From assembly GCA_018384465.1 (NCBI GenBank), contig JAHAYQ010000125.1, forward strand, positions 1-42,909: DNA of 42,909 bases. Direction: 5' to 3'. Below the pieces are notes generated by a model, which saw nothing but the letters and a program-made list of their open reading frames with translations, searched no databases and had not been told where the DNA came from. Shown here one piece after another: positions 16,607 to 33,706 of the stretch (its first letter is position 1; the number at the start of each line of letters is the position of its first letter). The position numbers and the translations under genes are program-made. The DNA is from Myroides sp. (GTDB taxonomy: Bacteria > Bacteroidota > Bacteroidia > Flavobacteriales > Flavobacteriaceae).

Positions 16607-16611
16607 TGTTC

Positions 16612-18167: not shown

Positions 18168-18176
18168 AATGTAAAA

Positions 18177-19043: not shown

Positions 19044-19114
19044 TTTTTATTCTTCACAATAATTTTAAAATCGGATAACCTTTTGGATTATTCTATTTTT
19101 AGCAAAAGTAAACT

Positions 19115-19184
19115 GCCAAATACCGCCTTTCAAAGCCATCGGCTACAACATTTCAGAATGTCTTAAAATACCTTTATAAATTTA
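19115..19184 (+). promoter_or_regulatory. 4xGCC operator and -7 element upstream of the HTH pair
   Basis: GCCAAATACC GCCTTTCAAA GCCATCGGCT ACAAC, 27 bp, TAAATTTA. Confidence 0.62.
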
Positions 19185-19209
19185 ACTTCCACCGAAAAAA
19201 TGAGTAAAA

Positions 19210-19521: not shown

Positions 19522-19801
19522 AGCGGAAGAAATCATCTCTCATCAGGAGTTGATCATGCAGTTAAAAAATCGTATCGAAGAAATATTGAACAACTACCGT
19601 CCTGTAATGAAAGGAGAAATATACCTATCTGGCGAAGATGTATGCGAACTGCTCCATATCAGCAAACGAACTTTACAGCAATACAGAGATGATAAAATCC
19701 TACCGTATATACAAATAGGGGGAAAGATCATCTACAAGGAAAGTGATATTCTGACAGTCTTGGAGCAGAACTACATATCCAATAATACCGACCATATATA
19801 A
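19502..19801 (+). CDS. Excisionase-like HTH_17 DNA-binding protein (Xis2d-like)
   Basis: YLSGEDVCELLHISKRTLQQYRDDKILPYIQIGGKIIY. Confidence 0.9.
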   Translation: MDLLTNEAEEIISHQELIMQLKNRIEEILNNYRPVMKGEIYLSGEDVCELLHISKRTLQQYRDDKILPYIQIGGKIIYKESDILTVLEQNYISNNTDHI

Positions 19802-19899
19802 CCAAATTTTATTCAGATTGTGTTTTCGTATCGGAACCTCTTTAGTATATTTGTAGGAACATATAGAAAAATCTTAAAGTGTTTTTACTTTAAGTCCCA

Positions 19900-20044
19900 C
19901 ATTGAAAACTGGTAATTTTTAAGACAACGGGACAATAAGGAAGAACGCTCATGCCATAGGCGTGGGCGCTCGCTTATTCGTTGTCGGGTATACCAGTGCC
20001 TCAATGTCGGTGTAAGTGTAGTTGCCTGCGCTTTATTTTTTTTG
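19900..20044 (+). ncRNA. Candidate structured leader RNA / attenuator
   Basis: Five nested stems with G-U pairs, downstream of TATATTTG -7 element (19846-19853), ending in a T-tract. Confidence 0.5.
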
Positions 20045-20076
20045 TGCAGGGCTACATCAACTTAAAAAGGTATGAT

Positions 20077-20469
20077 ATGGAAACTGGCACAGCAAAAGAA
20101 AAAATCACCCTCGCCTTTATCAACGATAAAAGCCCAATTATTGATGTTATTAGTAGAGACCTCTCAACTTCCGGATATGAAATATTATTCAAATTGGAGT
20201 CTATTGAAGACGGACTCTCTCAATTAGCAGCATTAAAAGAACTTCCTCAGGTTTGTATTATCGACCTTGATTTCTTCGATAAGAATGTATTGAAACAACT
20301 TCAAGAATTCAAAACAAAATACCCTAGCATTAAACTTATTGCCCATAGTGATATTGACAATGAGAAAATTGGTAAGACGCTCTTAGCTATTGGTTTTTCA
20401 AGTTATTTATTAATTGGTACTGATACTGACGATTTTAAAAAAGCCATTGAAAGAGTTTCCAATGGCTGA
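20077..20469 (+). CDS. Stand-alone response-regulator receiver-like protein, C-terminus possibly eroded
   Basis: ITLAFIND...VCIIDLD...KLIAHSD...GFSSYL receiver pattern; ATG at 20077 preferred. Confidence 0.75.
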   Translation: METGTAKEKITLAFINDKSPIIDVISRDLSTSGYEILFKLESIEDGLSQLAALKELPQVCIIDLDFFDKNVLKQLQEFKTKYPSIKLIAHSDIDNEKIGKTLLAIGFSSYLLIGTDTDDFKKAIERVSNG

Positions 20470-20656
20470 TAGATATTTTGGTGTGCGATGTAACGAAAAT
20501 CGTTTAAAAATATTTTTCAATAAGTAACGCCTCCAGCATTAAAAGACAAATAATTTTAATAAAAAATGTGGGGTGGGTTTATTATTACACAATAATTTTG
20601 GCCATAGGAAACAGGCAGGGTTGGGCGCTGGATAAAATAGATTTATTACATTATTT

Positions 20657-20682
20657 GGGTCGACACAGAGGTCGACCCTTAC
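20657..20682 (-). repeat. REP-like palindrome
   Basis: Minus strand GTAA-GGGTCGAC-CTCTGT-GTCGACCC, resembling GTAG-family REPs. Confidence 0.5.
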
Positions 20683-20792
20683 CGTATGATTTCTTAACGG
20701 ATTTGCATCAAAAGAGGGGTTTTCTATGTTGGGTCAAAGTCAAAAAATATTGTATTCCGATACATCTCCTTATTCATTTACGGATAATAGGT

Positions 20793-21860
20793 TTACCTTG
20801 TAGTAGCCAAGTATTCCTTAATTTCGTTTACTGTATTCTTAGCTGATCTTCCAACTCCAATAAGTGTGGCAGATGCAAAGCCTGTCCAATTTCCATATCC
20901 TACTAGCCAAAGTCCAGAAACTCTATTCGCTCTAGTTACTGTTGTTTCAACTCGGCCGTTCGGATCGGTAATACCTAAGTTATCGAGATGTTGAGTGGCA
21001 TACCTAAAACCAGTACACCAAACTATGGCATCAAACTTTTCCTCTTCTCCAGTTTCCCATTCAACACCGGTAGCTGTTATGGAATTTATACGACCTTTGC
21101 TATATAAAACATTTCTTCTTCTTGCTTCGACAACTGATGGTACCATTACAATATTTGACAAATTATAGGTGTTTGTATCCAATGTTTTCCCTTCTTTTTG
21201 GGCATTATACATTGCAGTTGCAGTATCAAATAGCACACGACCGTCTACTTCATCAGGAAGAAAACTAGGATTTTCAAGTGTAGACCATTCGGTTTGTCCT
21301 ACTTTGGATATTTCAGCAAGTAATTGTGCTCCTGAATTACCACCTCCTACAATTAGTACTTTTTTATCCTTAAAAATCTCAGGATTTCTGTAATGAGCAG
21401 AATGTACCTGTAGACCTTTAAATAATTCCTTTCCTTTTACATCTGGAATAAATGGCGCAGACCAAGTACCAGTTGCTGAAACCACTGCTTTCGCAAAGTG
21501 CTCACCATCTGATGTTTGCAATTTAAATCCTTCTTGGGTTCTTTCTACCGATTGAACCTTAACCGATCTAGTTGTTGGTATATTATATTTCTTCTCATAC
21601 CTTTCTAGATAATCAATTGTTTCTTTTCTGAATGGGAATTTACCCTGAGATTCTGGCATGAGCCATCCAGGTAATGAACTAAATTGTGCTGGGGAGAATA
21701 GGGTCAATGATTCCCATCCATGATTCCATGCTCCACCAGACTGCTCTTGCTCATCGAGTAGTATATAATTTAAACCAGTGCGTCTTAAAAAATATCCACA
21801 AGCAAGGGCACTTTGCCCACCACCAATAACTATTACATCATAAATTTTCATTTCACTCAT
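20793..21860 (-). CDS. arsO: ArsO-family NAD(P)H-dependent flavin monooxygenase
   Basis: FAD motif IGGGQSAL, HSAHY, NADPH motif VGGGNSG, SATLIGVGR; adjacent to ars operon. Confidence 0.85.
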   Translation of the reverse strand: MSEMKIYDVIVIGGGQSALACGYFLRRTGLNYILLDEQEQSGGAWNHGWESLTLFSPAQFSSLPGWLMPESQGKFPFRKETIDYLERYEKKYNIPTTRSVKVQSVERTQEGFKLQTSDGEHFAKAVVSATGTWSAPFIPDVKGKELFKGLQVHSAHYRNPEIFKDKKVLIVGGGNSGAQLLAEISKVGQTEWSTLENPSFLPDEVDGRVLFDTATAMYNAQKEGKTLDTNTYNLSNIVMVPSVVEARRRNVLYSKGRINSITATGVEWETGEEEKFDAIVWCTGFRYATQHLDNLGITDPNGRVETTVTRANRVSGLWLVGYGNWTGFASATLIGVGRSAKNTVNEIKEYLATTR

Positions 21861-21964
21861 TTAAACGATTACTATTCCATACAGTACAAAAAATCTAAAG
21901 CTTTTAATGTCATTAAGTATGTATATATTGATATGTCAATACCAGAAAAACAACTTATATAATT

Positions 21965-22000
21965 AAAAAAAACAGGGATTTACCTTTTTGGAAGTCCCTG
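21965..22000 (-). terminator. Terminator after acr3
   Basis: CAGGGATTT...AAGTCCCTG stem with T-run on minus strand. Confidence 0.65.
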
Positions 22001-22019
22001 CCTTACTGAGCAATAAAGT

Positions 22020-23054
22020 TTAACTGTAATATTTCTTTTTAAGCCAAAGGCTGACACGTACTAACAGGATTAAGACTGGTACTTCAATCAATGGACCAAT
22101 AACCCCCACAAATGCTTGTGGAGAATGTATTCCGAATACGGCTATCGCTACCGCAATGGCTAATTCGAAGTTGTTGCCCGTAGCGGTAAAGGATATTGCG
22201 GCATTCTTATCATAGGCTACATTCATGGATTTATTCATGAAAAAACTGATAAAGAACATCAATACAAAATAAATCACTAACGGAATAGCAACTTTCAGAA
22301 CCTGCATAGGTAGTTGTACAATTTGCTCCCCTTTTAGGCTAAACATTAAAACAATGGTGAATAGCAAAGCATACAGGGTAAATGGTGATATAAAGGGTAT
22401 AAATTTACGGGTATACCAATTTTCACCTTTTATTTTAGAAAGGTATTTATGACTTAAAAATCCGGCTAAAAAAGGAATTCCTAAATAGATGAGTACGCTT
22501 TTAATGACTTCGCTCATCTCTATTGAAACGGAATATTCAGCAAAACCAAAATAAGTTGGCAATATATTGATAAACAACCAAACAAAAAAGCTGTAAAATA
22601 CGATTTGAAAAATACTGTTTAATGCAATTAGAAGCGCGGCATACTCTCTATTTCCTTTTGCAAGGTCATTCCATACAATGACCATGGCAATACATCGTGC
22701 GAGACCAATAAGAATTAATCCGACCATATAGTCTGGTTCATTTCTTAAGAATATCACTGCTAGTATAAACATCAAGATAGGACCAACAAGCCAGTTTAAG
22801 ATAAGTGATAAGCTAAGCACTTTTTTATCCTTAAACGCAAGCGGCAAAAGATTATAATTTACTTTAGCCAAAGGAGGATACATCATGATGATTAGACCAA
22901 TAGCCAATGGGATATTGGTAGTTCCAACCGATAGTGAATCCATCACGTTAGAAATGCTTGGAAATAAATTCCCTATTAACACCCCTAATCCCATCGCCAA
23001 AAAGATCCATAAGGTTAAGTATCGGTCTAAAAACTTCATTCTTACTTCCATCAC
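22020..23054 (-). CDS. acr3: ACR3-family arsenite efflux transporter
   Basis: [44 protein letters not shown]. Confidence 0.96.
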
Positions 23055-23060
23055 TATTCT

Positions 23061-23669
23061 TTATTTAATTTGTGAAAAGACATAAAACATTTCTGAGGCT
23101 ATTTCTAAACTTCTACGATTATAGACCTGATCTTGTTGGTCTGTATTGTCTGAGATTTTAGGATCCTCAAAGGTAATAGGTATGCGTTTCTCAGCACCTG
23201 CAATAAATGGACAACCACCGTCTGCTTGTGAACAGGTCATGACGGCAGCAAAGTTGGATTGAGGATTGAATGCTGCATCGTATTTTTTAGAGAAACCTAT
23301 TATCGGCAACGCATTTTTATCATATTTGAGTGCATATACCGGATTAGCACCTTCGGAAATGGTAATTACCTCGATTCCTGCTTTTTCAAATGTTTCTGCA
23401 ACTTTAGGAAACATAGCTGTTTCTTCGGTACCACCTGAATAACATATAACTCTAGGTATCTGGTAGTGTGTCGCCGCTATTTGTGCCCATACTTGAGACA
23501 AGTGACTTCTACGTGAATTGTGCGTACAGATAAAATTGATGTTGATATCTAATCCATCTGTAAATTTACCTTGGATATAGTCAATCAAGGGCTGCAAAGT
23601 AGCTTTGCGCCCTTGATTGATTTCTAATTTTAGTATATCCGTAACTGTATTTACTAATTTTGTGTTCAT
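23061..23669 (-). CDS. arsC: LMW-PTP-fold arsenate reductase
   Basis: FICTHNSRRS P-loop, CSQADGGCPF, EDPK; ATG at 23669 avoids overlap with upstream gene. Confidence 0.85.
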   Translation of the reverse strand: MNTKLVNTVTDILKLEINQGRKATLQPLIDYIQGKFTDGLDININFICTHNSRRSHLSQVWAQIAATHYQIPRVICYSGGTEETAMFPKVAETFEKAGIEVITISEGANPVYALKYDKNALPIIGFSKKYDAAFNPQSNFAAVMTCSQADGGCPFIAGAEKRIPITFEDPKISDNTDQQDQVYNRRSLEIASEMFYVFSQIK

Positions 23670-23682
23670 AATCGTATTTTGA

Positions 23683-24138
23683 TTAACAACAGCCTGATCC
23701 TGGTGCACAGCTATTGGATTTTGATTCGCTCACTTGCGCTAGACTAGGAATACCACAAGCATCTTGTGCTAAACAAGCTGTAGTTTTGTTCGTTAAAACA
23801 AAATTCTTGCCATTGAAATCTAATCCGAATTTTCCAATGGTTCCGCTTTGATACTCTACTTCAATCTCGTGATCACCGATATTCAGTTTTGTTTCGGATA
23901 GCTCGATGATATGTAATAGCTTGCCGGGTTTTAGTCTGTGCTCATAATCATCTGCATTCCACAACTGGAAGTTTACAGTATTCTCTGCACGAGTTACTCC
24001 ACCACAATCAATGAAATTTTTAATAATTTGACCTACTTCGGTAACGTGAAAGTGTTCCGGTACAAATGTTCCGTCTTCTAATTGAAATTCAACATTTTCT
24101 AATGTTGGAAGGATTTGTTTGATTTCTGATAGTTTCAT
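23683..24138 (-). CDS. DUF6428-like ars-associated protein
   Basis: VPEHFHVTEVG, FIDCGG, TACLAQDACG, C-terminal CAPGSGCC. Confidence 0.8.
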   Translation of the reverse strand: MKLSEIKQILPTLENVEFQLEDGTFVPEHFHVTEVGQIIKNFIDCGGVTRAENTVNFQLWNADDYEHRLKPGKLLHIIELSETKLNIGDHEIEVEYQSGTIGKFGLDFNGKNFVLTNKTTACLAQDACGIPSLAQVSESKSNSCAPGSGCC

Positions 24139-24168
24139 ACTATTTTTATTTAAATTAATTTTTAATGA

Positions 24169-24184
24169 ATCGTTATATTACGAT
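24169..24184. promoter_or_regulatory. Putative ArsR operator (internal)
   Basis: Near-palindrome ATCGTTATATTACGAT, similar to the copy at 24560. Confidence 0.65.
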
Positions 24185-24204
24185 GTTACTTTGCAAAAAA
24201 ATGC

Positions 24205-24534
24205 CTAACAACATTCTTTTAAATCAATGTTCTGGGCAAAAAAGTCTTTGAATTCTTCGGAAAAATCCTTCCATACTGTATCGTTGATACAATAACAAAC
24301 AGATTTTCCTTCAATAGTGCCTTGAATGAGTCCACTAGTCTTGAGTTCTTTTAAATGTTGAGAAATAGTAGCTTGTGCTAATCCTAACTCCTCAACTAAA
24401 TCATTACAAATACATGCCTTTTGGTTTATGATATATTGTAAAATAGCTAATCTTGCCGGATGAGCTAGGACTTTAAACATAGTTGCTAGCGTATTCTTCT
24501 TGTCACTAAATAATTCTGATTTCGTGATACCCAT
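24205..24534 (-). CDS. arsR: ArsR/SmtB-family repressor
   Basis: LAHPARLAIL, ACICNDL, LAQATISQHLKELK, C-terminal CC. Confidence 0.95.
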   Translation of the reverse strand: MGITKSELFSDKKNTLATMFKVLAHPARLAILQYIINQKACICNDLVEELGLAQATISQHLKELKTSGLIQGTIEGKSVCYCINDTVWKDFSEEFKDFFAQNIDLKECC

Positions 24535-24559
24535 TTATAAATCTTTAATTAAACTTAAT

Positions 24560-24575
24560 ATTGCAATATTACGAT
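24560..24575. promoter_or_regulatory. Putative ArsR operator upstream of arsR
   Basis: Near-palindrome ATTGCAATATTACGAT. Confidence 0.65.
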
Positions 24576-24678
24576 AATAGATTTAAACCAACAAGATTTA
24601 TTTTATTTTATTTTTAAACAGGTCAGGAATTACGAATTAAAAGTTTGATAACCAATCAAATAAAGCGACGTTCTTTTG

Positions 24679-24886
24679 CTTCTTTTCTTTGGTCGCAGAT
24701 ATGGAAAGAAAAGAAGTCAATCCAAAATCAAATATTGGGATACCGAATATCCCACGAAAACAGCTCGCAACCTATTTGATAAAATGTAAGGGAGGGAATT
24801 GTGGAGCGGTACATTTTGGCAATGTGGTTGCTCCGAATTTAATGCAAAAATGTGTTTCCGACCGTAGCGAGGAATTGCATTTTTGC
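24679..24886 (+). other. Hairpin cluster, candidate single-strand origin (sso/ssi)
   Basis: Four consecutive IRs; TAGCGA in the loop of the last one. Confidence 0.5.
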
Positions 24887-24902
24887 CGCCCGATTTTGGC
24901 TA

Positions 24903-25712
24903 TCAGGCGACTTTGAGGGGGTGGGTTTGGAAGTTCTTCAGATTAAGAAAAAAACCTCTATTTTCGGTCATTCCATTACGAAACAAGCTCCACAACAAAG
25001 AACAACCCATTTGAGCCAATGTTGCATTGATGTATAAATCCTGTTTTTCCAATGCTTCGGCAAGTGAGCAACTTGGCGTATCGTCCGCTTGTTCGGACTG
25101 TTTCAATAGTTCGCCAAATTCATCGGTAACCATTGGCAGGCTTGCCACCGTTTCGTACTTTTCGGAATTGGGTTGTTTTACCGTTCCGATAGTGGATAGT
25201 ATTACTTGTCCTGTATGTTGGCTATTGCCAAAGTCTAACCAATATTTGGGTTCGTCCCGATGGTGTCTGCGGTCACTTAACTCTTTTAGTATTTCAGCAA
25301 CGCCAAACCTCGCCTTTACATTGTCCACACAAGTAATGTAAATCGTTGATTGTGCATTTTCGGGAAATCCACCCAACGCAGTGCGTTCAAACTTTTGGGT
25401 TTCGGCTTTCCAATTTGTACCCATAAACCGATTGACACGGTTTATCAAAGCTACCGATTTGTACAAGCCTATTTCGCTTGGTGCAAAACGCTGTCTGCCC
25501 AAATTGGCTTCCGTGATAATATCATCATCCCACAAACGGATTTGCAATCCTGCGTGTCCCAATGTTATTAAACTGTGGTTCATTTCCATTAAAGCGGTCA
25601 GAACCTTTGAACCTGTGCCACCTGCACCAATAAGGTTTACCGAAATTGGATTGGTGGGATTGAGCAGGTAATTGTCCGTAAAATGAATGGCTGTTTTTGT
25701 CGTTTCCATCAC
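24903..25712 (-). CDS. PRTRC-system ThiF/E1-like activating enzyme
   Basis: LIGAGGTGS, DDDIITEANLGRQRF, KSVAL, TCVDN, WLDFGN, DDTPSCSLAEALEKQDL. Confidence 0.92.
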   Translation of the reverse strand: MMETTKTAIHFTDNYLLNPTNPISVNLIGAGGTGSKVLTALMEMNHSLITLGHAGLQIRLWDDDIITEANLGRQRFAPSEIGLYKSVALINRVNRFMGTNWKAETQKFERTALGGFPENAQSTIYITCVDNVKARFGVAEILKELSDRRHHRDEPKYWLDFGNSQHTGQVILSTIGTVKQPNSEKYETVASLPMVTDEFGELLKQSEQADDTPSCSLAEALEKQDLYINATLAQMGCSLLWSLFRNGMTENRGFFLNLKNFQTHPLKVA

Positions 25713-26434
25713 AATAGATTTTTAAGAGTTTTGTTATTCTTTTTTAATACTTCTTTCGGAAAGATTTTATCGGTATTGATTAACTCATTCCAAAGGTTTA
25801 CACAATTGCCTTTAATCGGACTTTGTCCTCCCAATAAGTGACTGAAATAGCTGTTAAAAAAATAGTCCTCCCAAGCTTTAGTAAATTCCTCAACCGAAGC
25901 CGAATTTTTAATTTCAACATTTACCGTACCCATACAGACTTTGCCGTCTTCATAGATATTGAAAAAGGGTCCATAATACAATTTTGTATTATTTGTGGGT
26001 CTTCGGTCGCTTGCAAGGGCAAACACACTCAAACTGTTTTTACTCGCTTTCCAAAGCATTGGCGGTACGTGTGCTTTACCGTTCGGAATATCCAAACCAT
26101 TTACAAAATACAGTTGCCTTTTTTGTGCTTTAGTGTACCAGATGACCGTGCCTTTTTCCGTACTCGGATTAAGGTGCAGAATGTTTGTCGGCAAAATTCC
26201 GTTTGCCTTTAAAAAGGCTTTGTCCTTTTCTTTTTGGGTATGAAGTGACTTTGCCAATATATTTGCTTCCCTCACGGTCAATGGGTGGGCATTGATTGGA
26301 TTTCCGTTTTTGTCCATATCAAAATGCTCTACATACACCTCTGTGTTCGCTCCTTTGGTTTCATAGAATACCAAAGCGGATTTGGGGTGGTATAATGTCC
26401 CGAAGTCTTTTGTTATATCAGTTATTGTTTCCAT
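25709..26434 (-). CDS. PRTRC-system protein B (prokaryotic E2 family D)
   Basis: PFFNIYEDGKVCMG with putative catalytic Cys, WEDYFFNSYFSH; adjacent to ThiF. Confidence 0.88.
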   Translation of the reverse strand: METITDITKDFGTLYHPKSALVFYETKGANTEVYVEHFDMDKNGNPINAHPLTVREANILAKSLHTQKEKDKAFLKANGILPTNILHLNPSTEKGTVIWYTKAQKRQLYFVNGLDIPNGKAHVPPMLWKASKNSLSVFALASDRRPTNNTKLYYGPFFNIYEDGKVCMGTVNVEIKNSASVEEFTKAWEDYFFNSYFSHLLGGQSPIKGNCVNLWNELINTDKIFPKEVLKKNNKTLKNLL

Positions 26435-26446
26435 GATTTTCGGTAT

Positions 26447-27601
26447 TTAAAAGGCGTTTAATATGTCGCATAACTTATGTAGTAGTTCAAACAATCGGCT
26501 TTCAAAACAAAGGTTGTTAGTGGTTATATCTTTGCCGTTAAACATTTTTTTAATAATGGGTTCTTCTATTTGTCCGTATTCCTGTATTTCATTGTTGACC
26601 GATTGTATCAATGTTTCATTGAGCCAACCTTTGTGATCAGCATAAAAGGATATGTACTTTTCCATTCCGATAATGTTGTCCATATCTTCTTCAGATACTT
26701 CTCCATTGAGTTGGGCATTCCGGAATACATTTTCATTCGGGTAGGTCTGATATAGTGCAAAAGCTTCTTTTACTACTGTCAAACATTCCCTGTCAAAATT
26801 GTCTTTTACTTTAAAACTTTCAATCCGTTGTTCAAATACGGTCAGATTGATACGGTTATAAATCCGTTGCTCAATATAATCCCCGATAAATTCGGCTTGT
26901 TTGATTTCTGATAAATAAACTTCGGTTTCTTCCGTATAATCGTCCTGTTCAACCCAATCGTTCATCATTTCGTACATCCAATAGAGATAGCTTGCTTCCT
27001 GTCTGTAATACGGAATATCGGCTATATGGTACAGATAAGCACAAGCGGACAATAACAAATGGGCGTTTCTTTTCCGCTTACGGTTGTGCAACATTCGGTA
27101 CAACGAAGCAACGGGAATGTAAAAAAGTGTTGCCCCTGTATTGTAGCGTTCCTCACTTACAAAATAAGTTTTCTTACTATCCTGTACCAAACGTATTTCT
27201 TCCCAATTTAAAACACGTTGTTTTAGCTTCTCTTCCATATCCCACGTAGCCAATGCCATATTATAGGGATAGGGAAATTGTTGGGTTTCTATCGGTGCTA
27301 TTTGGTAATGTTTGGCAAGATTGGAAAGGGACTTATAAAAATCCCTCTCCGTTTTTGCTGTTTTCTTACAAGCCTGTACGGATTGTTCCGCTTTCAGTTT
27401 AGGCAGAAACGTACACTTTAGAATACCATTGGTAGCATTGCTATCGGTACGGATTTCTGCTTGTCTTTTCGTAATTGGTTTGCATCCTTTGGTCTTTGCA
27501 TCCAATTGGCGAACTCGCCCAACTGTCGGTGCAATTGCCGTTGTCGTTGCTGTGCGGGTATTGTGATTGTTCCCGATAGGATATGTTTGTGCATAGTTCA
27601 T
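26447..27601 (-). CDS. PRTRC-associated helical protein (occupies the protein F position)
   Basis: 384-aa ORF between the Ubl and E2 genes; family assignment by synteny only. Confidence 0.7.
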   Translation of the reverse strand: MNYAQTYPIGNNHNTRTATTTAIAPTVGRVRQLDAKTKGCKPITKRQAEIRTDSNATNGILKCTFLPKLKAEQSVQACKKTAKTERDFYKSLSNLAKHYQIAPIETQQFPYPYNMALATWDMEEKLKQRVLNWEEIRLVQDSKKTYFVSEERYNTGATLFYIPVASLYRMLHNRKRKRNAHLLLSACAYLYHIADIPYYRQEASYLYWMYEMMNDWVEQDDYTEETEVYLSEIKQAEFIGDYIEQRIYNRINLTVFEQRIESFKVKDNFDRECLTVVKEAFALYQTYPNENVFRNAQLNGEVSEEDMDNIIGMEKYISFYADHKGWLNETLIQSVNNEIQEYGQIEEPIIKKMFNGKDITTNNLCFESRLFELLHKLCDILNAF

Positions 27602-27618
27602 TGCTTTAAATATTTAGA

Positions 27619-27837
27619 TTAACCTTTCGTTCCCATTACACTCTCAAATTTGTATTCAACTGCATCATCCTTGATTTGTGGTGCAGATATTTTTGCCGTT
27701 GTGAGTATGGGGTACATATTGGCGTAAAAATTCATCACGGCTTCCACGCTCCAACGTGGTTCGGGGTCGGTCAGTCTGATGTCCTGTCCTTTATCTTTGA
27801 GTATAAATACTCGTTCTAATTGCGTTGCTAATAACAT
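27619..27837 (-). CDS. PRTRC-system protein C (prokaryotic ubiquitin-like)
   Basis: 72 aa, RVF...LTDP...VMNFYANMYPILTTA, C-terminal GTKG. Confidence 0.9.
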   Translation of the reverse strand: MLLATQLERVFILKDKGQDIRLTDPEPRWSVEAVMNFYANMYPILTTAKISAPQIKDDAVEYKFESVMGTKG

Positions 27838-27856
27838 AATTGCTCGTTTTTAAATA

Positions 27857-28501
27857 TTAATATTCTGCATCTTCTTCGTCCTCTTGGAATAAGTCCTCGT
27901 CCTCATTTTGCGCATAGAGTTCATTTACCTGCTGTTCAAATTCGGTTTCCTGGTTCGGTGGTTCGGGTTGGGTTTCTTCCGTTGCTCCGAAAAGGCTCGG
28001 TGTTCCAAACTTGTCAGATAAGGAGGTTTTACGTTTACGTATCTCGTCCGCTTTTTCGGGAAACTCGGCTATGTCGGGAACTTTTATCCACGCATCACGG
28101 AATTTACCTGCTTTTTCAAGTTCGTCTACCTTTGCCATGCCGTCCTTAAACTTCTTGTCTTTGGCTTCTTTTTCCTTTTTCGCTTTCTCGGTTTTTTCTT
28201 TCTCCATTGCCGATTGCTTTTTGACTTCTTCCATTTGTCTTAGAAATTTTTCCATATCCACCATTACGCCCGAAACGGTTTTGATAGGTGCTTTTATCTG
28301 CTCAAAAAATCCCTCATCAAACTCTTGGGGTGTGGCGTTAAATGTCAATGGGGGAATAAGGTTTTTGGCATTATCTCCGCATTGTTCGTTGTTGAGCAGT
28401 ATCGATACGATAAGGTTATTTTCTGCTCCTTTGGAAATATTCAGTTGTAATACTCCTGTAAAGTCCAACTGTTGTATCTGATTGAAAAAATTAGTATTCA
28501 T
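27857..28501 (-). CDS. PRTRC-system protein E
   Basis: N-terminal FF...PLTFNATPQEFDEGFF, coiled coil, PSLF, acidic tail. Confidence 0.85.
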   Translation of the reverse strand: MNTNFFNQIQQLDFTGVLQLNISKGAENNLIVSILLNNEQCGDNAKNLIPPLTFNATPQEFDEGFFEQIKAPIKTVSGVMVDMEKFLRQMEEVKKQSAMEKEKTEKAKKEKEAKDKKFKDGMAKVDELEKAGKFRDAWIKVPDIAEFPEKADEIRKRKTSLSDKFGTPSLFGATEETQPEPPNQETEFEQQVNELYAQNEDEDLFQEDEEDAEY

Positions 28502-28513
28502 CGTTTTGAAATT

Positions 28514-28708
28514 TTAAGGGTTGTTTACTTGTTCTCTTATTGCTGTCAGTTTCTCATATAAGTCCGTCCAATAGACTTTTAGTCTTTTGTCAAACTCCGA
28601 AAAACTTTTGTCTTCGTGTTGGTTTTCTGTGCATTCTTCCGCTATGCGGATGGCTTCGTCAAGATTTGGTATTTCGAGACGGCAACCGTGTAAATCTGTT
28701 ATTTTCAT
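28514..28708 (-). CDS. Small hypothetical protein
   Basis: 64 aa; start overlaps the upstream stop codon; co-oriented in the operon. Confidence 0.75.
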   Translation of the reverse strand: MKITDLHGCRLEIPNLDEAIRIAEECTENQHEDKSFSEFDKRLKVYWTDLYEKLTAIREQVNNP

Positions 28709-29181
28709 ATTGATGCTATTTTGCGTTCCAATAGGGTTTCCAGTATTTCACAATCGCTGTCGTAGATTTCACCTTCAAAAGAATAGGTATCAGTTTCTTC
28801 ATCAAATTGATACCTGTCAAAATCCTCATCTTCCAAATAAATATCTGTGAGTAGCTTGTCAGAAAATATTGCCCTACCATATATAAGGTTGCTCATTTCC
28901 TCATAATCCTGTACGAAATTCACGTGGTAGTATTCTGCTATCGCTTGTACTACCTCAATATTGGGCGACCATTTTGTTTCGTATTGAAACATTCCTATAT
29001 CCCCCTCGTTCCAATAGATGTTGAAGAAATACCCACCGTTTTCATCTGTGATAAAATCGGGTAATTGTCCTCTTTCTGTTTGTTCTTCCTTTTCCTTCAT
29101 TGCTTGGAAAAGCTGTTGTATCTGTGTGATTGCTTCGGGATTCCCCTCGAAAACAATCGTATTACTGCACCAATTTGCCAT
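28705..29181 (-). CDS. DUF1281/YubB-like ferredoxin-fold acidic protein
   Basis: MANWCSNTIVFEG start, YETKWSPN. Confidence 0.75.
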   Translation of the reverse strand: MANWCSNTIVFEGNPEAITQIQQLFQAMKEKEEQTERGQLPDFITDENGGYFFNIYWNEGDIGMFQYETKWSPNIEVVQAIAEYYHVNFVQDYEEMSNLIYGRAIFSDKLLTDIYLEDEDFDRYQFDEETDTYSFEGEIYDSDCEILETLLERKIASI

Positions 29182-29202
29182 TGTAATTTTATTTATTCGT
29201 TA

Positions 29203-29304
29203 CTATATAATATTGTCCTGTTCGAAATTCCGCACCTTTTCTTCGGCTTCCTGTATCGTTCTTCGGATATTCGCCAGTCTTTCAGGTGTAAAAGGCTTGA
29301 CCAT
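29203..29304 (-). CDS. Candidate 33-aa small protein (not in ORF track)
   Basis: MVKPFTPERLANIRRTIQEAEEKVRNFEQDNII fills the only large gap in the operon; tandem TAG TAA stops. Confidence 0.45.
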   Translation of the reverse strand: MVKPFTPERLANIRRTIQEAEEKVRNFEQDNII

Positions 29305-29316
29305 AGCCACATTGAT

Positions 29317-29721
29317 TTATATAAGGTTTTTGCGATCTATGAACTGCTCAATCTTTAAAGCGGTCTTACGGTTCTGTTCTTCGGCATATTCCAAAGCCTT
29401 TTTCTTGATTCTGAACCTTGCACCGTCCACGTTCCAACGTACTTTTATTCTATGAATGGTGGATGGGGTACTGTATGCATCGTATGTCGTGCCTGTTATT
29501 TCCTGCTCTTTTTCAACCTTGACAACTTTAATATATACACCTTGCTGTTCTACGTTGGGGTAATATGTAGAAAGCAAAAGATTTTGAGCCTTGTCAAAGA
29601 TTTCAAATCGGACAAAATCTTTATCTTCCAATAGGATACGGAACAGTTCTTTCATGTGAAAATTCCAATTCATCAAAACCCTTTCTTCGTATTTTTTATA
29701 TGTTATGATACCAATATTCAT
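29317..29721 (-). CDS. Hypothetical protein
   Basis: 134-aa ORF co-oriented in the operon. Confidence 0.75.
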   Translation of the reverse strand: MNIGIITYKKYEERVLMNWNFHMKELFRILLEDKDFVRFEIFDKAQNLLLSTYYPNVEQQGVYIKVVKVEKEQEITGTTYDAYSTPSTIHRIKVRWNVDGARFRIKKKALEYAEEQNRKTALKIEQFIDRKNLI

Positions 29722-29737
29722 GATAATTGATTTTAAT

Positions 29738-29763
29738 GGCTACCACCGATTAAGGCGGTAGCC
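29738..29763 (-). terminator. Hairpin after DUF932 gene (weak terminator or mRNA-stability element)
   Basis: GGCTACCACC-GATTAA-GGCGGTAGCC; no clean T-run. Confidence 0.45.
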
Positions 29764-29772
29764 TGTGGTTAT

Positions 29773-30846
29773 TTAATTAAGGTTTAGGATTTCTGCACCG
29801 TCCGTTGCAAAAGAAGTACATAAGTCAAATGCTTTCTGCGATTTCAGTTGAGCCGTTCCACCTAGTACAATGCTTTGTAGTTTGGCTTCATCGTTTTTGT
29901 AATTGCGTACATTTTGGTAGTAGCCTGTGACAGCGTTGTACGCTCCGAACAAAGTACCTTTTGTGGTGTCCATTTGTTGCGTATCGCTTAGCATTGCATA
30001 CGCAAAAGCATCTTCAACGGTGTTTTTAAACACGGTAGAAACTTCATCTTCCACACCTTTTTTAAGTAAATCCAACGTTTCTTTATTCGGGCAAAGTGCC
30101 AATTGAATTAGCTTTTTAACCTCTTGGTCTGTTACTTTTACCTTAGTCCAACCATTGAAGATACTTTCTAGCTGTGTGCTTAACGTATTCGCTAATCCCA
30201 TAATTTTATGAGCATTTTCAATACGTTGTTTTGCTCCCGATGTGTGTTTAATACGGACTACATTAGTCATACTGCGTAATGAGGCATTCAGCGTGTTTTG
30301 GCATACAATACGGATAGGCGTAAAAGCGGCTGTGATACTGCCCGAACCATCGTGCGAAGTTGTGAGGAAGATATATTTTTCTGTCACGTCATCGCCATTG
30401 CCAACACGGATATAATCGGGTAATTTGGCTGTGATAAATATACGTTCGCCATTACCTAATGCTCCTGCGGTTTCGTATAGAATACCCTCGCCACCACCTA
30501 CAATAGCATCAAAGAAATTAAAGGCTTCACGGTTTTGTACAATGTGGTAATCCTTACCGACTACACCCAATACTGCATTGTTATCAGTGCGTATGTTGGC
30601 AAAATAGTTGGGTACTTCCAATTCGTTACTGCCTATTTCGATACCGCTAGCTGTTTCGATAATACCCGAATCTTTGGTAAATAGTGGACTTTTTACGACT
30701 TCATAGTCTAAACCTGCGTGCTTGATAGCTTCTGCGCTTGTTGGGTATTGCTCTACGATTTGCCCCAAACCGTGCCACGCTTTTTGTTGAACGCTAAAGA
30801 ATGAATAACGTCCTGTTTTCTCGTTGAAATTGATGTTGTGTGCCAT
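29773..30846 (-). CDS. DUF932 phage/plasmid-like protein
   Basis: MAHNI, AWHGLG, YETAGAL, TSHDGSGS, TPIRIVCQNTL, GAYNAVTGY. Confidence 0.9.
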   Translation of the reverse strand: MAHNINFNEKTGRYSFFSVQQKAWHGLGQIVEQYPTSAEAIKHAGLDYEVVKSPLFTKDSGIIETASGIEIGSNELEVPNYFANIRTDNNAVLGVVGKDYHIVQNREAFNFFDAIVGGGEGILYETAGALGNGERIFITAKLPDYIRVGNGDDVTEKYIFLTTSHDGSGSITAAFTPIRIVCQNTLNASLRSMTNVVRIKHTSGAKQRIENAHKIMGLANTLSTQLESIFNGWTKVKVTDQEVKKLIQLALCPNKETLDLLKKGVEDEVSTVFKNTVEDAFAYAMLSDTQQMDTTKGTLFGAYNAVTGYYQNVRNYKNDEAKLQSIVLGGTAQLKSQKAFDLCTSFATDGAEILNLN

Positions 30847-30891
30847 AATGCTAAAAATTTTGATGTTTGAAAAATGATTAAATACTCGTTG

Positions 30892-31284
30892 TTAGAATGG
30901 GAGGTCGTCTTCTGTTTCCAATGCTGTAACCTTGATACTTTTCGATTGTGTAGAAGCTTGTGTAGTTTCTGCTCGCTTACTACCTCCGTGCAGTTTGATT
31001 TGCGAGGTATGGAAATTCAGTCCTGCTCTTAATTCTCCGTCATTACCTACCCACGCTCTTGTACTTACTCTGCCCGATAGTTCTACCAAAGTGCCTTTTG
31101 TGAGTAGTGTGGCTACCTTAGCAGAAATCCAATAAGAGCAGTCGAAATAGGTGGTTTGCTCAATGCGTTCGCCCTGCTTGTTTTTGTAGCTGTCGTTGGT
31201 CGCTACTGAAAAATTTACTACTTGTTTGTCCTGTGACGTGGTGCGTACTTCCGCATCTCTTGTCAGTCTTCCGATGATGTTCAT
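30892..31284 (-). CDS. ssb: Single-stranded DNA-binding protein
   Basis: IIGRLTRDAE, FSVATN, KGTLVELSGR, C-terminal DDLPF; ATG at 31284. Confidence 0.93.
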   Translation of the reverse strand: MNIIGRLTRDAEVRTTSQDKQVVNFSVATNDSYKNKQGERIEQTTYFDCSYWISAKVATLLTKGTLVELSGRVSTRAWVGNDGELRAGLNFHTSQIKLHGGSKRAETTQASTQSKSIKVTALETEDDLPF

Positions 31285-31416
31285 GATTTCTACTTTTTTA
31301 CGTTTTTGAATTTGTCCCGATTTGATTTTTTTAAAATTTATTCGGAAATGAGAGGTGGTGCTGAAGTTTCGTTTCACTTTTTCACCATTTTCAATGTTTA
31401 TTTTTCCCATTTCTGA

Positions 31417-31645
31417 CATTTTTTTTATTCGTTTAAAGAGCCGGAGTATGCTTTGTTTCGTTTCACGAGCATAAAAGGTTCGTGTTTAGCAGCAACAAGG
31501 TTTTGGCAAAAAAATACGACCCGAATGGGTGGAGATTATTTTGCAAACCCGAAGGGCATGACCTTTTTGCTGTGTTAAGAACACGGAAATACCTTTGCTC
31601 TTGAAATGGGACAAAACAGCATACTGGCTCTTGAATAAAAAAATG
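31417..31645 (+). promoter_or_regulatory. Long imperfect fold-back, candidate single-stranded (Frpo-like) promoter for ssb operon
   Basis: ~85-nt complementary arms; right arm holds TTTG-N20-TACCTTTG (31566-31597). Confidence 0.7.
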
Positions 31646-31903
31646 AAGTGGAAGTAATGAAAATGACGTTACACAAATGGTCTATGTGATTACAAAGTCT
31701 GCTCACTTGCTTGACCGTATTTTTTTCTTGTGTAAATAAGTGGCTTGGAGAGCCACAGAAAGGGTATTGAAGAAAATATTGAAGTGGGTACTGAGAGGTG
31801 TTTTCTCAATATCCTTGACCAAGGATCCGATCAAAGCTCTTTTATGTGCGGTGGGATTAGCAAAGGATAAATAAATGTGCTTTGGGGATAAAAAATAAGG
31901 TGT

Positions 31904-31932
31904 AAAAAAAGCAGGATCGTCAAATCCTGCTT
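31904..31932 (-). terminator. Terminator after xis
   Basis: AAGCAGGAT...ATCCTGCTT with T7 on minus strand. Confidence 0.8.
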
Positions 31933-31953
31933 AATTCATCTTTTCTTAATCGT

Positions 31954-32235
31954 TTAACTGCCATCAACTCCTTCCAGCAATTTCCGAATATCTTCGTAAC
32001 GATAGTACATCAATCCACCAATTTTAGTGTAGGGTAATGTTCCATTTAGCCGAAGGTTTTGAAGTGTGCCAGCTGAGATTCCTAATAATTTGCGCACCTC
32101 ATAGCTTTTTAACCATTCCTTTGGTTCCTGTCCCGATTTTCTCATATAAGGTGAATATCTTCTAATTTCTTCAAAAAGTTCTTTTTTAAAACTTTCAAGA
32201 TCCTCTCGGGTAATAAGTTCTACTCTCATTTGCAA
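31954..32235 (-). CDS. Excisionase-like HTH_17 protein
   Basis: WLKSYEVRKLLGISAGTLQNLRLNGTLPYTKIGG; next to integrase. Confidence 0.9.
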   Translation of the reverse strand: MQMRVELITREDLESFKKELFEEIRRYSPYMRKSGQEPKEWLKSYEVRKLLGISAGTLQNLRLNGTLPYTKIGGLMYYRYEDIRKLLEGVDGS

Positions 32236-32305
32236 TTCCTTTAAATATTAATAATTTCATGAGGGGCAGAACAGCCTTCTGTTATCAATTCTGCCACTAT
32301 GAATA

Positions 32306-32375
32306 CAAATGAACTGAAAGTAACCAAAGACTTAAACAAACTGGTATCCAATGGCACCATTTGGCTGCGAAAGGC
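32306..32375 (-). promoter_or_regulatory. 4xGCC operator and -7 element upstream of xis
   Basis: Minus strand GCCTTTCGCA GCCAAATGGT GCCATTGGAT ACCAG, 27 bp, TTCATTTG. Confidence 0.65.
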
Positions 32376-32424
32376 ATGTAATACCCTGCGTATCCTTAAA
32401 AATATACACACCAATTGCATTAAG

Positions 32425-33666
32425 CTAACCTTTTGAAGCCATTCGTTTCCTAAGGTTCTGCATATCTTCGCTAAGTTTGTGCTCTACAACTTTCGCATAG
32501 ATTTGTGTAGTACGTATCGAAGTGTGTCCAAGCATCTTACTAACAGATTCGATCGGAACGCCGTTACTCAAAGTTACAGTTGTAGCAAATGTATGTCTAG
32601 CAAGGTGGAAGGTGAAATTTTTATTAATTCCACAGATTTCAGCAATCTCCTTTAAATAACCGTTCATGCGCTGATTGGAAATGACTGGAAAAAGTGTACC
32701 TTTTGCTAAAGCTACGGGATGATCTCTATATTTTTTGATCAATTGGACCGCCTCTGGTAAGAGTGGAACCCTAACCGTCGTGTTCGTTTTTTGTCGGTTG
32801 GTCATTAACCAGTCCCGACCATCGATTCCCTTAGCAATGTTCTCTTGGGTTAGATTGAATATATCAATGTAGGCAAGCCCTGTGTGACAACTGAAAAGAA
32901 ACATATCAAGTACAGATTGCAAGCGTTCAATTTTAAAACTTTTTTTGCTCAATACCTTTAATTCTTCCTTTGTAAGATGCCCTCGTTCTACTTTGTCGAA
33001 GTGGAGTTTATATTTGGAAAAAGGATCTTTTTCCAACCAGTCCATCATAACAGCCATATTAACCATTTTCCGCAAACGCTCCATGTGCTTCATCACTCCA
33101 TTATTATTAAGAGATTTATGATGATCAATCGACTCATAATTAATAAGAAAGTTTTCGAAATCCAGAATAAACTTATAATTGAGTTCATCCAGTGTTATAT
33201 CACTTTTACGATATTGATGCTTTATAAACTTTTTGAGATAACTTTCTGTAGTGTAATAGTTTTTCATGGTGCCTGGAGCAAGTTTTGTAATAGCTACTTG
33301 CTTATGATATTCAATAACCTTTAGCAAGGTCATTGCTTCCTCTATATCTTCACCAAGGTATTTGGCTTTAACAGCATCGACAGAAACCACTTTGTTTTGC
33401 TGTATCAATTCCTGATAGCTATCAAAGATCAAAGAGCGCACCTGTTCCATGTGGCTGTTCAATTTTACGATTTCTTGCCGTTTCCCTTTTGCTCTTCCTT
33501 TTGCTTCATCCCAATTGTTGATCGATACTTTGCTTTTTAAGGAAATTTCAGTTCTGCGACCGTTTACTGTAATCCTTGCATAAACAGTGGCCGTCTCATC
33601 TTTCTTGTTCTTGGGCAACCGTAACACGAATTGAATCCCAAAGGTGTTTTTACTCTTCATATCCAT
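32425..33666 (-). CDS. int: Tyrosine integrase (Bacteroidetes type with N-terminal arm-binding domain)
   Basis: YARITVNG arm domain, TGLAYID, RQKT, HLARHTFAT, LGH...TTQIYA. Confidence 0.96.
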   Translation of the reverse strand: MDMKSKNTFGIQFVLRLPKNKKDETATVYARITVNGRRTEISLKSKVSINNWDEAKGRAKGKRQEIVKLNSHMEQVRSLIFDSYQELIQQNKVVSVDAVKAKYLGEDIEEAMTLLKVIEYHKQVAITKLAPGTMKNYYTTESYLKKFIKHQYRKSDITLDELNYKFILDFENFLINYESIDHHKSLNNNGVMKHMERLRKMVNMAVMMDWLEKDPFSKYKLHFDKVERGHLTKEELKVLSKKSFKIERLQSVLDMFLFSCHTGLAYIDIFNLTQENIAKGIDGRDWLMTNRQKTNTTVRVPLLPEAVQLIKKYRDHPVALAKGTLFPVISNQRMNGYLKEIAEICGINKNFTFHLARHTFATTVTLSNGVPIESVSKMLGHTSIRTTQIYAKVVEHKLSEDMQNLRKRMASKG

Positions 33667-33706
33667 TTATTTTATGTTCAACTCATACTCTTTGGTGCTG
33701 TTCTCT

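What the first reader, a model, noticed from the sequence alone, without database searches (positions are those of the whole stretch)
24903..28501. Minimal ubiquitin-like conjugation system (E1, E2, Ubl plus two partners) on a conjugative element
Seen: a tightly packed operon encoding protein E, a 72-aa Ubl ending in Gly (GTKG), a 384-aa unknown, an E2-like protein with Cys in GKVCMG, and a ThiF/E1 with nucleotide-binding motif and Cys in TPSCS. Established: PRTRC cassettes are defined bioinformatically and, to my knowledge, have no demonstrated function; canonical versions also include a JAB peptidase (protein A), ParB and protein D, none of which is here. Bacterial E1/E2/Ubl chemistry is used in antiphage defence (CBASS Cap2, Bil). 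Inference: a pre-matured Ubl that needs no JAB is conjugated, possibly irreversibly, to recipient proteins, with the 384-aa protein or protein E as adaptor/E3. Its position among establishment genes points to an anti-defence or host-takeover role rather than defence.
Basis: partly seen in the sequence, partly recalled or inferred. Interest (0 to 1): 0.85.

Follow-up and report, generated by a model that had tools for sequence, protein, structure and literature searches.

The report
Protease-free ubiquitin-like cassette on conjugative transposon
A mobile DNA element of a Bacteroidota bacterium carries an intact five-gene PRTRC kit, a type catalogued in 2006, that likely glues a small ubiquitin-like tag onto other proteins without a trimming protease, probably soon after the element enters a new cell, so it is a common member of a known family and a simple version in which to test that family's job.

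Summary
Observation confirmed. Window 24903-28501 (minus strand) is a PRTRC / Iyer-2006 'type 6d' cassette (E, Ubl ending GTKG, 384-aa protein, E2 Cys167, E1 Cys214) inside a Bacteroidota conjugative transposon. It is neither rare nor new. The same JAB-less, ParB-less order recurs across 80 GTDB loci, in gut Bacteroidales and in B. thetaiotaomicron, which the 2006 paper lists. This scan also reported JAB-less cassettes on other DNA.

Added here:
(1) The 384-aa 'unknown' is probably a remote PRTRC protein F (structural bridge; sequence test not significant), with weak predicted binding to the E2.
(2) Ubl tail extensions occur only where JAB is present (10 of 14 versus 0 of 11), so JAB looks like a maturation enzyme.
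(3) A covarying ~190-nt stem-loop, like a single-stranded-DNA promoter, heads the ssb-DUF932-PRTRC operon.
(4) The cassette differs sharply between near-identical element backbones, F most.
(5) Protein E keeps a clamp-motif-like xLF.

Best reading: a one-way protein-tagging pathway for element establishment or replication. Anti-defence is possible but has no direct support. I found no experiment on any PRTRC system.

The parts
27857..28501 (-). PRTRC protein E (214 aa). Helical domain ending in a conserved P-[S/D]-L-F motif (168-171), then an acidic low-conservation tail; candidate sliding-clamp tether (inferred).
   Evidence: TIGR03741 and PF19556 above cut-off; motif in 79 of 80 Flavobacteriia-type E proteins
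27619..27837 (-). PRTRC protein C, the ubiquitin-like protein (72 aa), ending at Gly72 with no pro-tail
   Evidence: TIGR03738 and PF14454 above cut-off; C-terminus [VI]MGTKG in 72 of 72 called ORFs
26447..27601 (-). 384-aa protein, probable remote PRTRC protein F; fastest-diverging gene of the cassette; candidate E2 adaptor / target selector
   Evidence: Same slot as F; AF2 models of it and of Cupriavidus F share element order and both match only BFVD A0A6J5L345 at E<=0.001; profile-profile not significant; weak predicted binding to the E2
25709..26434 (-). PRTRC protein B, E2 family D (241 aa), Cys167 with downstream His199
   Evidence: PF14460 above cut-off; TIGR03737 128.1 vs 131.45; Cys167 invariant in 17 of 17 diverse sequences, His199 nearly invariant
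24903..25709 (-). PRTRC ThiF / E1 (268 aa): GxGGxG, Asp61, Arg72, Lys84, Asp129, crossover-loop Cys214; start overlaps the E2 stop
   Evidence: TIGR03736 above cut-off; residues invariant in 17 of 17; profile matches solved E1 structures, best E 1.9e-11
31420..31650 (-). Conserved ~190-nt imperfect stem-loop upstream of ssb at the head of the operon; candidate single-stranded-DNA (Frpo-like) promoter or priming signal
   Evidence: DNA fold -51 kcal/mol, z -9.27, 0 of 200 shuffles; homologues in 49 of 80 loci; 12 of 59 pairs covary, 0 of 500 shuffles; no Rfam match
30892..31284 (-). Single-stranded DNA-binding protein, first gene of the likely operon (probable start 31284; the ORF finder's 31419 start is longer than most relatives)
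   Evidence: TIGR00621, PF00436; an SSB-sized member of the SSB/DUF932 cluster in 75 of 80 loci
29773..30846 (-). DUF932 / TIGR03299 phage-plasmid protein, co-oriented neighbour
   Evidence: a member over 240 aa in 68 of 80 loci
28514..29721 (-). Variable slot: 134-aa unknown, DUF1281_C (Api92-like) protein of 158 aa, 64-aa unknown
   Evidence: content varies among loci
24650..24900 (-). Conserved non-coding element with four short hairpins downstream of the E1 gene, at the edge of the cargo slot; function unknown
   Evidence: homologues in 76 of 80 loci; z -3.24; 7 of 33 pairs covary

Best explanation
The cassette is an intact five-gene PRTRC (type 6d) operon of a Bacteroidota conjugative transposon that likely works as a one-way ubiquitin-like tagging pathway for the element's own establishment, probably switched on from single-stranded DNA after transfer and probably acting on proteins at the element's replicating DNA. 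Shown: gene set, order, catalytic residues, the Gly-ended Ubl, absence of JAB nearby, the covarying stem-loop before ssb. Inferred from E1/E2 chemistry: the E1 adenylates Gly72, forms a Cys214 thioester and passes the Ubl to E2 Cys167. Inferred from weaker evidence: protein F binds the E2 and selects the target; protein E docks on the sliding clamp through its xLF motif; JAB is dispensable because its main job in this family is to trim a Ubl pro-tail. My odds by step: covalent Ubl transfer 0.75; F as E2 partner 0.55; expression on entry 0.5; replisome-proximal target 0.35.
For: Catalytic Gly, Cys and ATP-site residues are invariant across phyla. Tail extensions occur in 10 of 14 JAB-containing versus 0 of 11 JAB-less plasmid/phage loci (Fisher p 5.5e-4). 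All 81 Ubls found in 82 Flavobacteriia-type loci, and 61 of 65 found in 80 gut loci, end at Gly; the other 4 are frameshifted. Precedent: in Bub operons JAB may act mainly to cleave the pre-protein (PMC11601596, passages). F-E2 model: score 0.41, best control 0.01; that mark was reached by 116 of 157 solved complexes and 2 of 215 mismatched pairs, but at 0.60 or under by only 18 of the 157 and by both mismatches; runs agree in at least 81% of contacts, partner pLDDT at least 82. A Deinococcus plasmid repeats F-slot gene, B and ThiF as a unit beside single E and C. F diverges fastest (median identity 0.64 vs 0.96 for the Ubl, 55 loci), and the cassette is 60-85% identical between backbones whose left flank is 90-100% identical. 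The stem-loop before ssb covaries almost only by Watson-Crick swaps (62 cells both sides, 5 one side), as Frpo elements sit before ssb (PMC11541004, passages). That paper's supplement lists PRTRC B, C and E families (5 members each) on a sheet of leading-region families. Clamp link: xLF motif; Q-x-x-[LM]-F in 27 of 43 gut E tails vs 1.9 expected; dnaN annotated beside the cassette in 5 of 28 plasmid/phage loci.
Against: No biochemical or genetic test of any PRTRC system was found. The window-type E motif lacks the Gln of the recalled QL[SD]LF clamp consensus (0 of 80); only 10 of 23 plasmid/phage E proteins end in L[FW]; the Q-x-x-[LM]-F pattern was chosen after seeing the sequences; no dnaN lies in the 80 GTDB loci. 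No promoter consensus was found inside the stem-loop, it folds on both strands, and the transferred strand is unknown. One of 8 control gaps also folded strongly (z -6.5), and none of 8 proteobacterial loci had a strong fold before ParB. The cassette is about 18-22 kb and 26-30 ORFs from the presumed oriT, behind the tra genes. The loci are related and hand-picked: JAB-less needs 4 changes on the E1 tree, but one origin is not rejected (p-AU 0.065). The F-E2 pass is weak. His199 is not universal.
Confidence: 0.4

Rival explanations
1. Anti-defence: the same chemistry tags and disables recipient defence or stress-response proteins on entry, with fast-evolving protein F choosing the host target.
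For: Stem-loop and ssb context typical of early-expressed regions; PRTRC B, C and E on a leading-region family sheet; F diverges fastest and the cassette differs between near-identical backbones, as expected in an arms race.
Against: In that sheet the anti-CRISPR and anti-restriction columns are NA for B and C, and for E apart from one structural hit to a plasmid Bet protein. The cassette also occurs on temperate-size phages and large plasmids next to ParB, dnaN and helicases. No defence target is identified.
Confidence: 0.22
2. Defence or exclusion: like Bil, the resident element tags proteins of incoming phages or rival elements.
For: Characterised bacterial E1/E2/Ubl systems (CBASS Cap2, Bil) are antiphage (passages; abstracts). 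Divergent alleles could encode exclusion groups. A 2026 preprint reports recurrent variation in a prophage PRTRC B (10.64898/2026.10.01.756045, passages).
Against: The cassette sits at a fixed backbone position with ssb and DUF932 (or, by my reading of N-termini, DUF3945-like and topoisomerase-like genes in gut loci), not in the variable cargo slot. No PADLOC model matches beyond weak E1 similarity.
Confidence: 0.15
3. Sulfur carrier or nucleic-acid / small-molecule modification: the Ubl becomes a thiocarboxylate or acyl donor, and F is the enzyme that uses it.
For: ThiF-family ancestry. The 2006 paper suggested the helical protein might be an enzyme. F keeps a few polar residues (Ser91, Asn114, Arg259, Asn336, Glu367 at 90% or more of 125 sequences).
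Against: No desulfurase, rhodanese or biosynthetic gene among the window ORFs scanned or annotated beside the plasmid cassettes. An E2 with an invariant Cys is always kept, which sulfur relays do not need (established knowledge). F has no invariant column in 125 sequences.
Confidence: 0.1
4. Addiction or self-regulation module: tagging is toxic or regulatory and is held in check by E or F, with F a cryptic deconjugase replacing JAB.
For: Addiction was proposed for these operons in 2006. Bub operons use an unrecognised serine protease, BubE, as a likely eraser.
Against: F is present with and without JAB. It has no His or Cys conserved at 75% in the 125-sequence alignment. Four gut loci carry a frameshifted Ubl with E1 and E2 matches still full length.
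Confidence: 0.1

Closest known systems
PRTRC system (NCBIfam TIGR03734-TIGR03742) = operon type 6d of Iyer, Burroughs and Aravind 2006 (PMC1779556)
   Same: E, C (Ubl with terminal Gly), F-slot helical protein, B (E2 with Cys and downstream His) and ThiF in the canonical order on a mobile element
   Different: No protein A (JAB), ParB or D in the cassette; the F-slot protein is below all F models; ssb and DUF932 stand upstream where ParB usually does
B. thetaiotaomicron VPI-5482 BT2645-BT2649 and gut Bacteroidales ICE cassettes
   Same: E, unknown, E2 and ThiF, with E2 and ThiF adjacent and so no JAB gene between them (BT2646 as the Ubl is my inference); JAB in 0 of 80 gut loci; one Bacteroidota branch on the E1 tree
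   Different: Gut E proteins have long Pro/Gln tails with Q-x-x-MF, and different upstream genes
JAB-less PRTRC cassettes of pQBR103, a P. aeruginosa megaplasmid, and Alteromonas, Vibrio, Aeromonas, Shewanella, Photobacterium and Deinococcus plasmids
   Same: Five core genes, no JAB, Ubl ends at Gly
   Different: Most keep ParB; several have dnaN next door
Bil (BilABCD) and Type II CBASS Cap2/Cap3
   Same: Bacterial E1/E2 cysteine relay, shown experimentally in those systems (abstracts and passages)
   Different: They are defence systems with a JAB and different E2 families; PADLOC E1-E2 models match only the nucleotide-binding part weakly (E about 1e-4)
Bub (6E / DUF6527) operons
   Same: Ubl matured by JAB in Type I; Type II typically lacks JAB; target unknown
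   Different: Tyr/Ser oxyester chemistry and a BubE protease; here Cys214 and Cys167 are invariant and no protease is recognisable
Frpo / ssi single-stranded-DNA promoters of plasmid leading regions
   Same: Long imperfect stem-loop just upstream of ssb
   Different: Sequence similarity to known Frpo not tested; no promoter boxes found; it lies behind the tra region rather than next to the presumed oriT

Membership tests
PRTRC / 6d | ThiF-family E1 (TIGR03736) | tested here: met
   252.9 bits vs cut-off 144.75
PRTRC / 6d | Protein C, Ubl with conserved C-terminal Gly (TIGR03738, PF14454) | tested here: met
   60.2 vs 45.95; 95.5 vs 25
PRTRC / 6d | Protein B, E2 family D with Cys and downstream His | tested here: met
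   PF14460 127.2 vs 25; TIGR03737 128.1, 3 bits under its cut-off; Cys167 and His199 present
PRTRC / 6d | Protein E (TIGR03741, PF19556) | tested here: met
   45.2 vs 37.95; 243 vs 26
PRTRC / 6d | Protein F / alpha-helical protein between C and B | tested here: inconclusive
   No TIGR03742 or PF14456 hit listed for 125 family members; hhalign E 0.09-0.11; but same slot, same element order and a shared unique structural match
PRTRC / 6d | Protein A (JAB) in the cassette: typical, not universal | tested here: not met
   Absent from window and genome (genome 74% complete) and from 82 + 80 Bacteroidota loci; also absent in 13 of 28 plasmid/phage loci and at the B. thetaiotaomicron locus listed under 6d, so I file this under the JAB-less subtype, not the full seven-gene form
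PRTRC / 6d | PRTRC ParB and protein D | tested here: not met
   No hit among 51 window ORFs; the element's left end is off the contig; ParB is also missing next to the Deinococcus, Azonexus and phage Dina cassettes
PRTRC / 6d | Carried by a mobile element | tested here: met
   MobABC, TraG/J/K/M/N, integrase and adjacent tRNAs
Protein-conjugating Ubl pathway (Bil, Cap2, Bub) | Demonstrated Ubl adenylation, transfer and target conjugation | not testable with these tools
   Residues are present; chemistry needs experiment
Bil / CBASS Cap2 defence systems | Match to PADLOC models and a JAB partner | tested here: not met
   Only weak E1-E2 matches over 70-85 residues of the E1; none for the other four proteins
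Frpo-type ssDNA promoter | Long conserved stem-loop upstream of ssb | tested here: met
Frpo-type ssDNA promoter | Promoter boxes in the stem and activity on the transferred strand | tested here: inconclusive
   No sigma-70 site and no TAnnTTTG (consensus recalled) in the element; activity not testable

The most novel reading that the evidence does not exclude
PRTRC is a zygotically induced, eraser-free ubiquitin-like ligase of mobile elements. It is transcribed from a Bacteroidota-type single-stranded-DNA promoter as the transposon enters, tethered to the host sliding clamp by protein E, and aimed by an exchangeable E3-like protein F of a fold not found among solved structures. It would irreversibly tag replisome or defence proteins to secure establishment: a bacterial ubiquitin-like pathway working for the invader rather than the host.
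Probability: 0.25. Interest if true: 0.85.

Novelty: new member of a known kind. Interest (0 to 1): 0.5.

Why it matters
PRTRC/6d cassettes were described computationally in 2006, and I found no experiment on them. Yet relatives occur in 366 plasmid records, many of them large Pseudomonas plasmids, in gut Bacteroidales elements, and in 11 of 401 sampled genomes of this phylum. The five-gene JAB-less form is the smallest version and needs no maturation step, so it is the easiest to reconstitute and should accumulate conjugates for target identification. The analyses here give four concrete handles: JAB as a dispensable maturase, F as the E2 partner and specificity factor, the E motif as a clamp tether, and a stem-loop that predicts expression on entry. 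If tagging helps elements establish, it would extend bacterial ubiquitin-like chemistry from host defence to mobile-element biology.

Tried and rejected
1. The 384-aa protein against family libraries: no hit at cut-off for it or for 124 relatives; scattered single-member matches there are chance.
2. Against solved structures: Foldseek found nothing at E<=0.001; VIA-align best Z 4.7, rmsd 4.2 over 117 residues, none at Z>=5. This is no evidence of a new fold by itself.
3. Sequence link to F: HMM and hhalign not significant.
4. ESM Atlas gave no answer.
5. F as a hidden protease: no conserved His/Cys; not favoured.
6. JAB in trans: none in three whole JAB-less plasmids or a Pedobacter genome, with a positive control ringing (the plasmids' host chromosomes were not searched); none in 4 of 5 further genomes, one Prok-JAB about 22 kb from the cassette in G210. 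The TIGR03735 searches had silent controls.
7. Independent losses of JAB: not established (p-AU 0.065).
8. Four gut loci first scored as JAB-less with a tail proved to be frameshifted Ubl genes and were left out of the tree.
9. Expression: only small shares in RNA-labelled runs, all held as contigs and none laid; no evidence either way.
10. The promoter scan found fewer sigma-70 sites than shuffles. The repeat search found no att pair. Viral contigs gave 1 locus.
11. The 2006 supplement's operon table came through as only about 20,000 characters and did not reach the 6d rows. Burroughs 2009 (PMC2732565) is not held. Both may already describe the JAB-less form and the tail pattern.


Full report
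1. What is there. The five ORFs are real, co-oriented and tightly packed. Family scans of 51 window ORFs name them PRTRC protein E, protein C (Prok_Ub), an unmatched 384-aa protein, protein B (Prok-E2_D; TIGR03737 3 bits under its cut-off) and PRTRC ThiF. The window is the whole contig C309 of a 74%-complete genome. It holds a Bacteroidota conjugative transposon: mobCBA (2160-5992), tra genes (6663-18629), an arsenic-resistance cargo (20793-24534), the cassette, DUF932, ssb, and an integrase (32425-33666) beside tRNA-Pro and tRNA-Ser, the likely right end. The left end is off the contig.

2. How common. A GTDB scan with the E2 found 95 relatives and kept 80 loci from named Flavobacteriia, Sphingobacteriia and other Bacteroidota. 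They keep the order E, C, 384-aa protein, B, ThiF wherever the contig reaches. A six-frame search found JAB in 0 of 82 such loci (80 GTDB, the window, one viral contig) and a Gly-ended Ubl in 81; the miss is a 1.5-kb contig. In 80 gut-metagenome loci JAB was absent in all. 61 had a Gly-ended Ubl, 15 had no Ubl in the stretch held, and 4 had a frameshifted Ubl. 11 of 401 genomes sampled from the phylum match TIGR03737, and so does the control B. thetaiotaomicron. The E1 has relatives in 366 plasmid records and 5 phage records.

3. In print. Iyer, Burroughs and Aravind 2006 (PMC1779556; I read search passages and one tenth of the text) describe operon type 6d: Ubl with terminal Gly, helical protein, E2 with a downstream His, JAB and E1. 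Their table lists B. thetaiotaomicron. A transcriptome table (PMC10434189, passages) shows BT2645 as protein E and BT2648-49 as E2 and ThiF side by side, so the JAB-less form was in the founding set; whether the authors remarked on it I could not see, because the supplement came through cut. An Elizabethkingia preprint reports PRTRC in related ICEs, function unknown (10.1101/2024.12.10.627669, passage); PMC3318190 and PMC4073490 only mention it (passages). Five searches turned up no experiment on a PRTRC system; 40 of 45 hits for 'PRTRC' were listed, and most subscription papers are not held. Earlier notes of this scan report JAB-less cassettes and clamp-like motifs on other DNA.

4. Chemistry. 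In 17 sequences from several phyla the E1 keeps G28/G30/G31/G33, D61, N69, R72, Q73, K84, D129 and S213-C214, and its profile matches solved E1 enzymes. The E2 keeps P156, N159, C167 and G169, with H199 nearly invariant. That these residues run an adenylate-thioester relay is inference from E1/E2 enzymes. A sulfur-carrier role is less likely: no sulfur-donor gene was found, and the E2 is always retained.

5. Why JAB can go. I fetched 28 plasmid and phage loci, hand-picked for diversity. Fifteen have JAB: 10 with a Ubl extended past the conserved Gly (3-80 residues), 4 ending at Gly, 1 with no Ubl found. Thirteen lack JAB: 11 end at Gly, 2 had no Ubl found. On the 25 scored, Fisher p is 5.5e-4, but the loci are related. 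JAB-less needs 4 changes on a 25-row E1 tree (bootstrap 3-5), yet one clade is not rejected (p-AU 0.065). The one-way pattern fits JAB as a maturase that is lost when the Ubl is born mature, as suggested for Bub (PMC11601596, passages), and it implies that the free Gly matters. No Prok-JAB was found in three whole JAB-less plasmids or a Pedobacter genome, with pMOL28 as positive control, nor in 4 of 5 other genomes. Irreversibility is therefore plausible but unproven.

6. The 384-aa protein. It has 482 relatives among cluster representatives (the best 150 were listed and 124 aligned). Its model is confident (pLDDT 88) and has no clear match in the PDB. It sits in the slot of protein F. Its secondary-structure elements run in the same order as those of a Cupriavidus F model (my comparison by eye). 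Both models have the same single significant match in BFVD, A0A6J5L345 (E 1e-7, TM 0.45; E 4.7e-4, TM 0.38). Profile comparisons are not significant. I take it as remote F (about 0.85). It has no invariant column and no conserved His/Cys, which suits an adaptor better than an enzyme. A complex prediction with the E2 gave weak support: 0.41 against a best control of 0.01. That mark was reached by 116 of 157 solved complexes and 2 of 215 mismatches, but at 0.60 or under by only 18 of the 157 and by both mismatches; runs agree in at least 81% of contacts, partner pLDDT at least 82. It is the most divergent gene (median identity 0.64 over 55 of the 80 loci that had all six genes called). Against L063, a Sphingobacterium MAG, the window is 90-100% identical over 19-25 kb and 85-100% over 29.7-33.7 kb, but 60-85% over the cassette, lowest in F. 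This points to allele exchange of the whole cassette.

7. Protein E. A [PG][SDN]LF motif follows the helical domain in 79 of 80 Flavobacteriia-type proteins, without the Gln of the clamp consensus QL[SD]LF (recalled, not from a call). 27 of 43 distinct gut E tails carry Q-x-x-[LM]-F against 1.9 by shuffling, a pattern I chose after seeing them. 10 of 23 plasmid/phage E proteins end in L[FW]. dnaN is annotated beside 5 of the 28 plasmid/phage cassettes (two loci are unannotated) and was not found in the 80 GTDB loci. The clamp idea came from earlier notes of this scan; binding was not tested.

8. Timing. The strand runs ssb, DUF932, three small genes and the cassette, with gaps of at most 136 nt. 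Upstream of ssb, 31420-31650 folds as one long stem-loop (DNA energy -51 kcal/mol, z -9.27). It has homologues in 49 of 80 loci. In 19 distinct copies 12 of 59 pairs change on both sides (62 cells, against 5 cells with one-sided G-U-type changes; 0 of 500 shuffles, slid controls far lower). No Rfam family matches. Near-pure Watson-Crick covariation suggests a DNA structure, and Frpo promoters lie before ssb (PMC11541004, passages). That paper's supplementary sheet 'Other unknown leading families' holds PRTRC B, C and E families of 5 members each (one scanned supplement could not be searched). Five of 7 gut-type loci also fold strongly upstream of E, but 1 of 8 control gaps did too, and 0 of 8 proteobacterial loci did before ParB (14 shuffles per window). 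No promoter boxes were found. The presumed oriT (inverted repeat 6051-6112) is 18-22 kb away, and the transferred strand is unknown. If the relaxase enters last, the operon points toward oriT as leading-region genes do (recalled).

9. Verdict. A genuine, intact, common member of the JAB-less subtype of a family known since 2006. Most likely it is a covalent tagging pathway serving the element's establishment or replication (0.4 for the whole mechanism; 0.75 for covalent transfer). Anti-defence (0.22), defence or exclusion (0.15), sulfur or other chemistry (0.1) and addiction (0.1) are rivals. Novelty: new member of a known kind. Interest 0.5, for testability of a long-open question rather than surprise.

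Noticed in passing
window 37321-42716 (+): Wadjet jetABC genes (strong PADLOC JetA1, JetB1, JetC1 matches) beyond the tRNAs, probably outside the element; jetD would lie off the contig end.
   Followed up: partly
window 20793-24534 (-): Arsenic-resistance cargo (ArsR, DUF6428, arsenate-reductase-like, Acr3, ArsO) in a slot between the cassette and tra whose content varies among relatives.
   Followed up: partly
window 24650-24900: Conserved four-hairpin non-coding element after the E1 gene in 76 of 80 loci, 7 of 33 pairs covarying, no Rfam match; terminator, priming signal or recombination site.
   Followed up: partly
window 6051-6112: Long imperfect inverted repeat between mobA and the first tra gene, candidate oriT region.
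   Followed up: no
L063 vs window 19000-33700: Near-identical element backbone in a Sphingobacterium MAG with a much more divergent PRTRC allele, suggesting recent spread and cassette exchange.
   Followed up: partly
L147, L155, L194, L200: Gut cassettes with a frameshifted Ubl gene (in L200 also a split E) while E1 and E2 matches remain; decaying copies.
   Followed up: partly
L085 3421-8666: Deinococcus plasmid with two tandem F-slot/B/ThiF modules but one E and one Ubl.
   Followed up: no
G210:C1 1504826-1505137: A Prok-JAB gene about 22 kb from the PRTRC B match; it may belong to another system in the cargo.
   Followed up: no
window 36618-37190 (+): Pentapeptide-repeat protein with matches far below the cut-offs of Qnr models; outside the element.
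   Followed up: no
BFVD A0A6J5L345: Uncharacterised 384-aa phage protein that structurally bridges the window protein and canonical F; its gene context was not checked.
   Followed up: no
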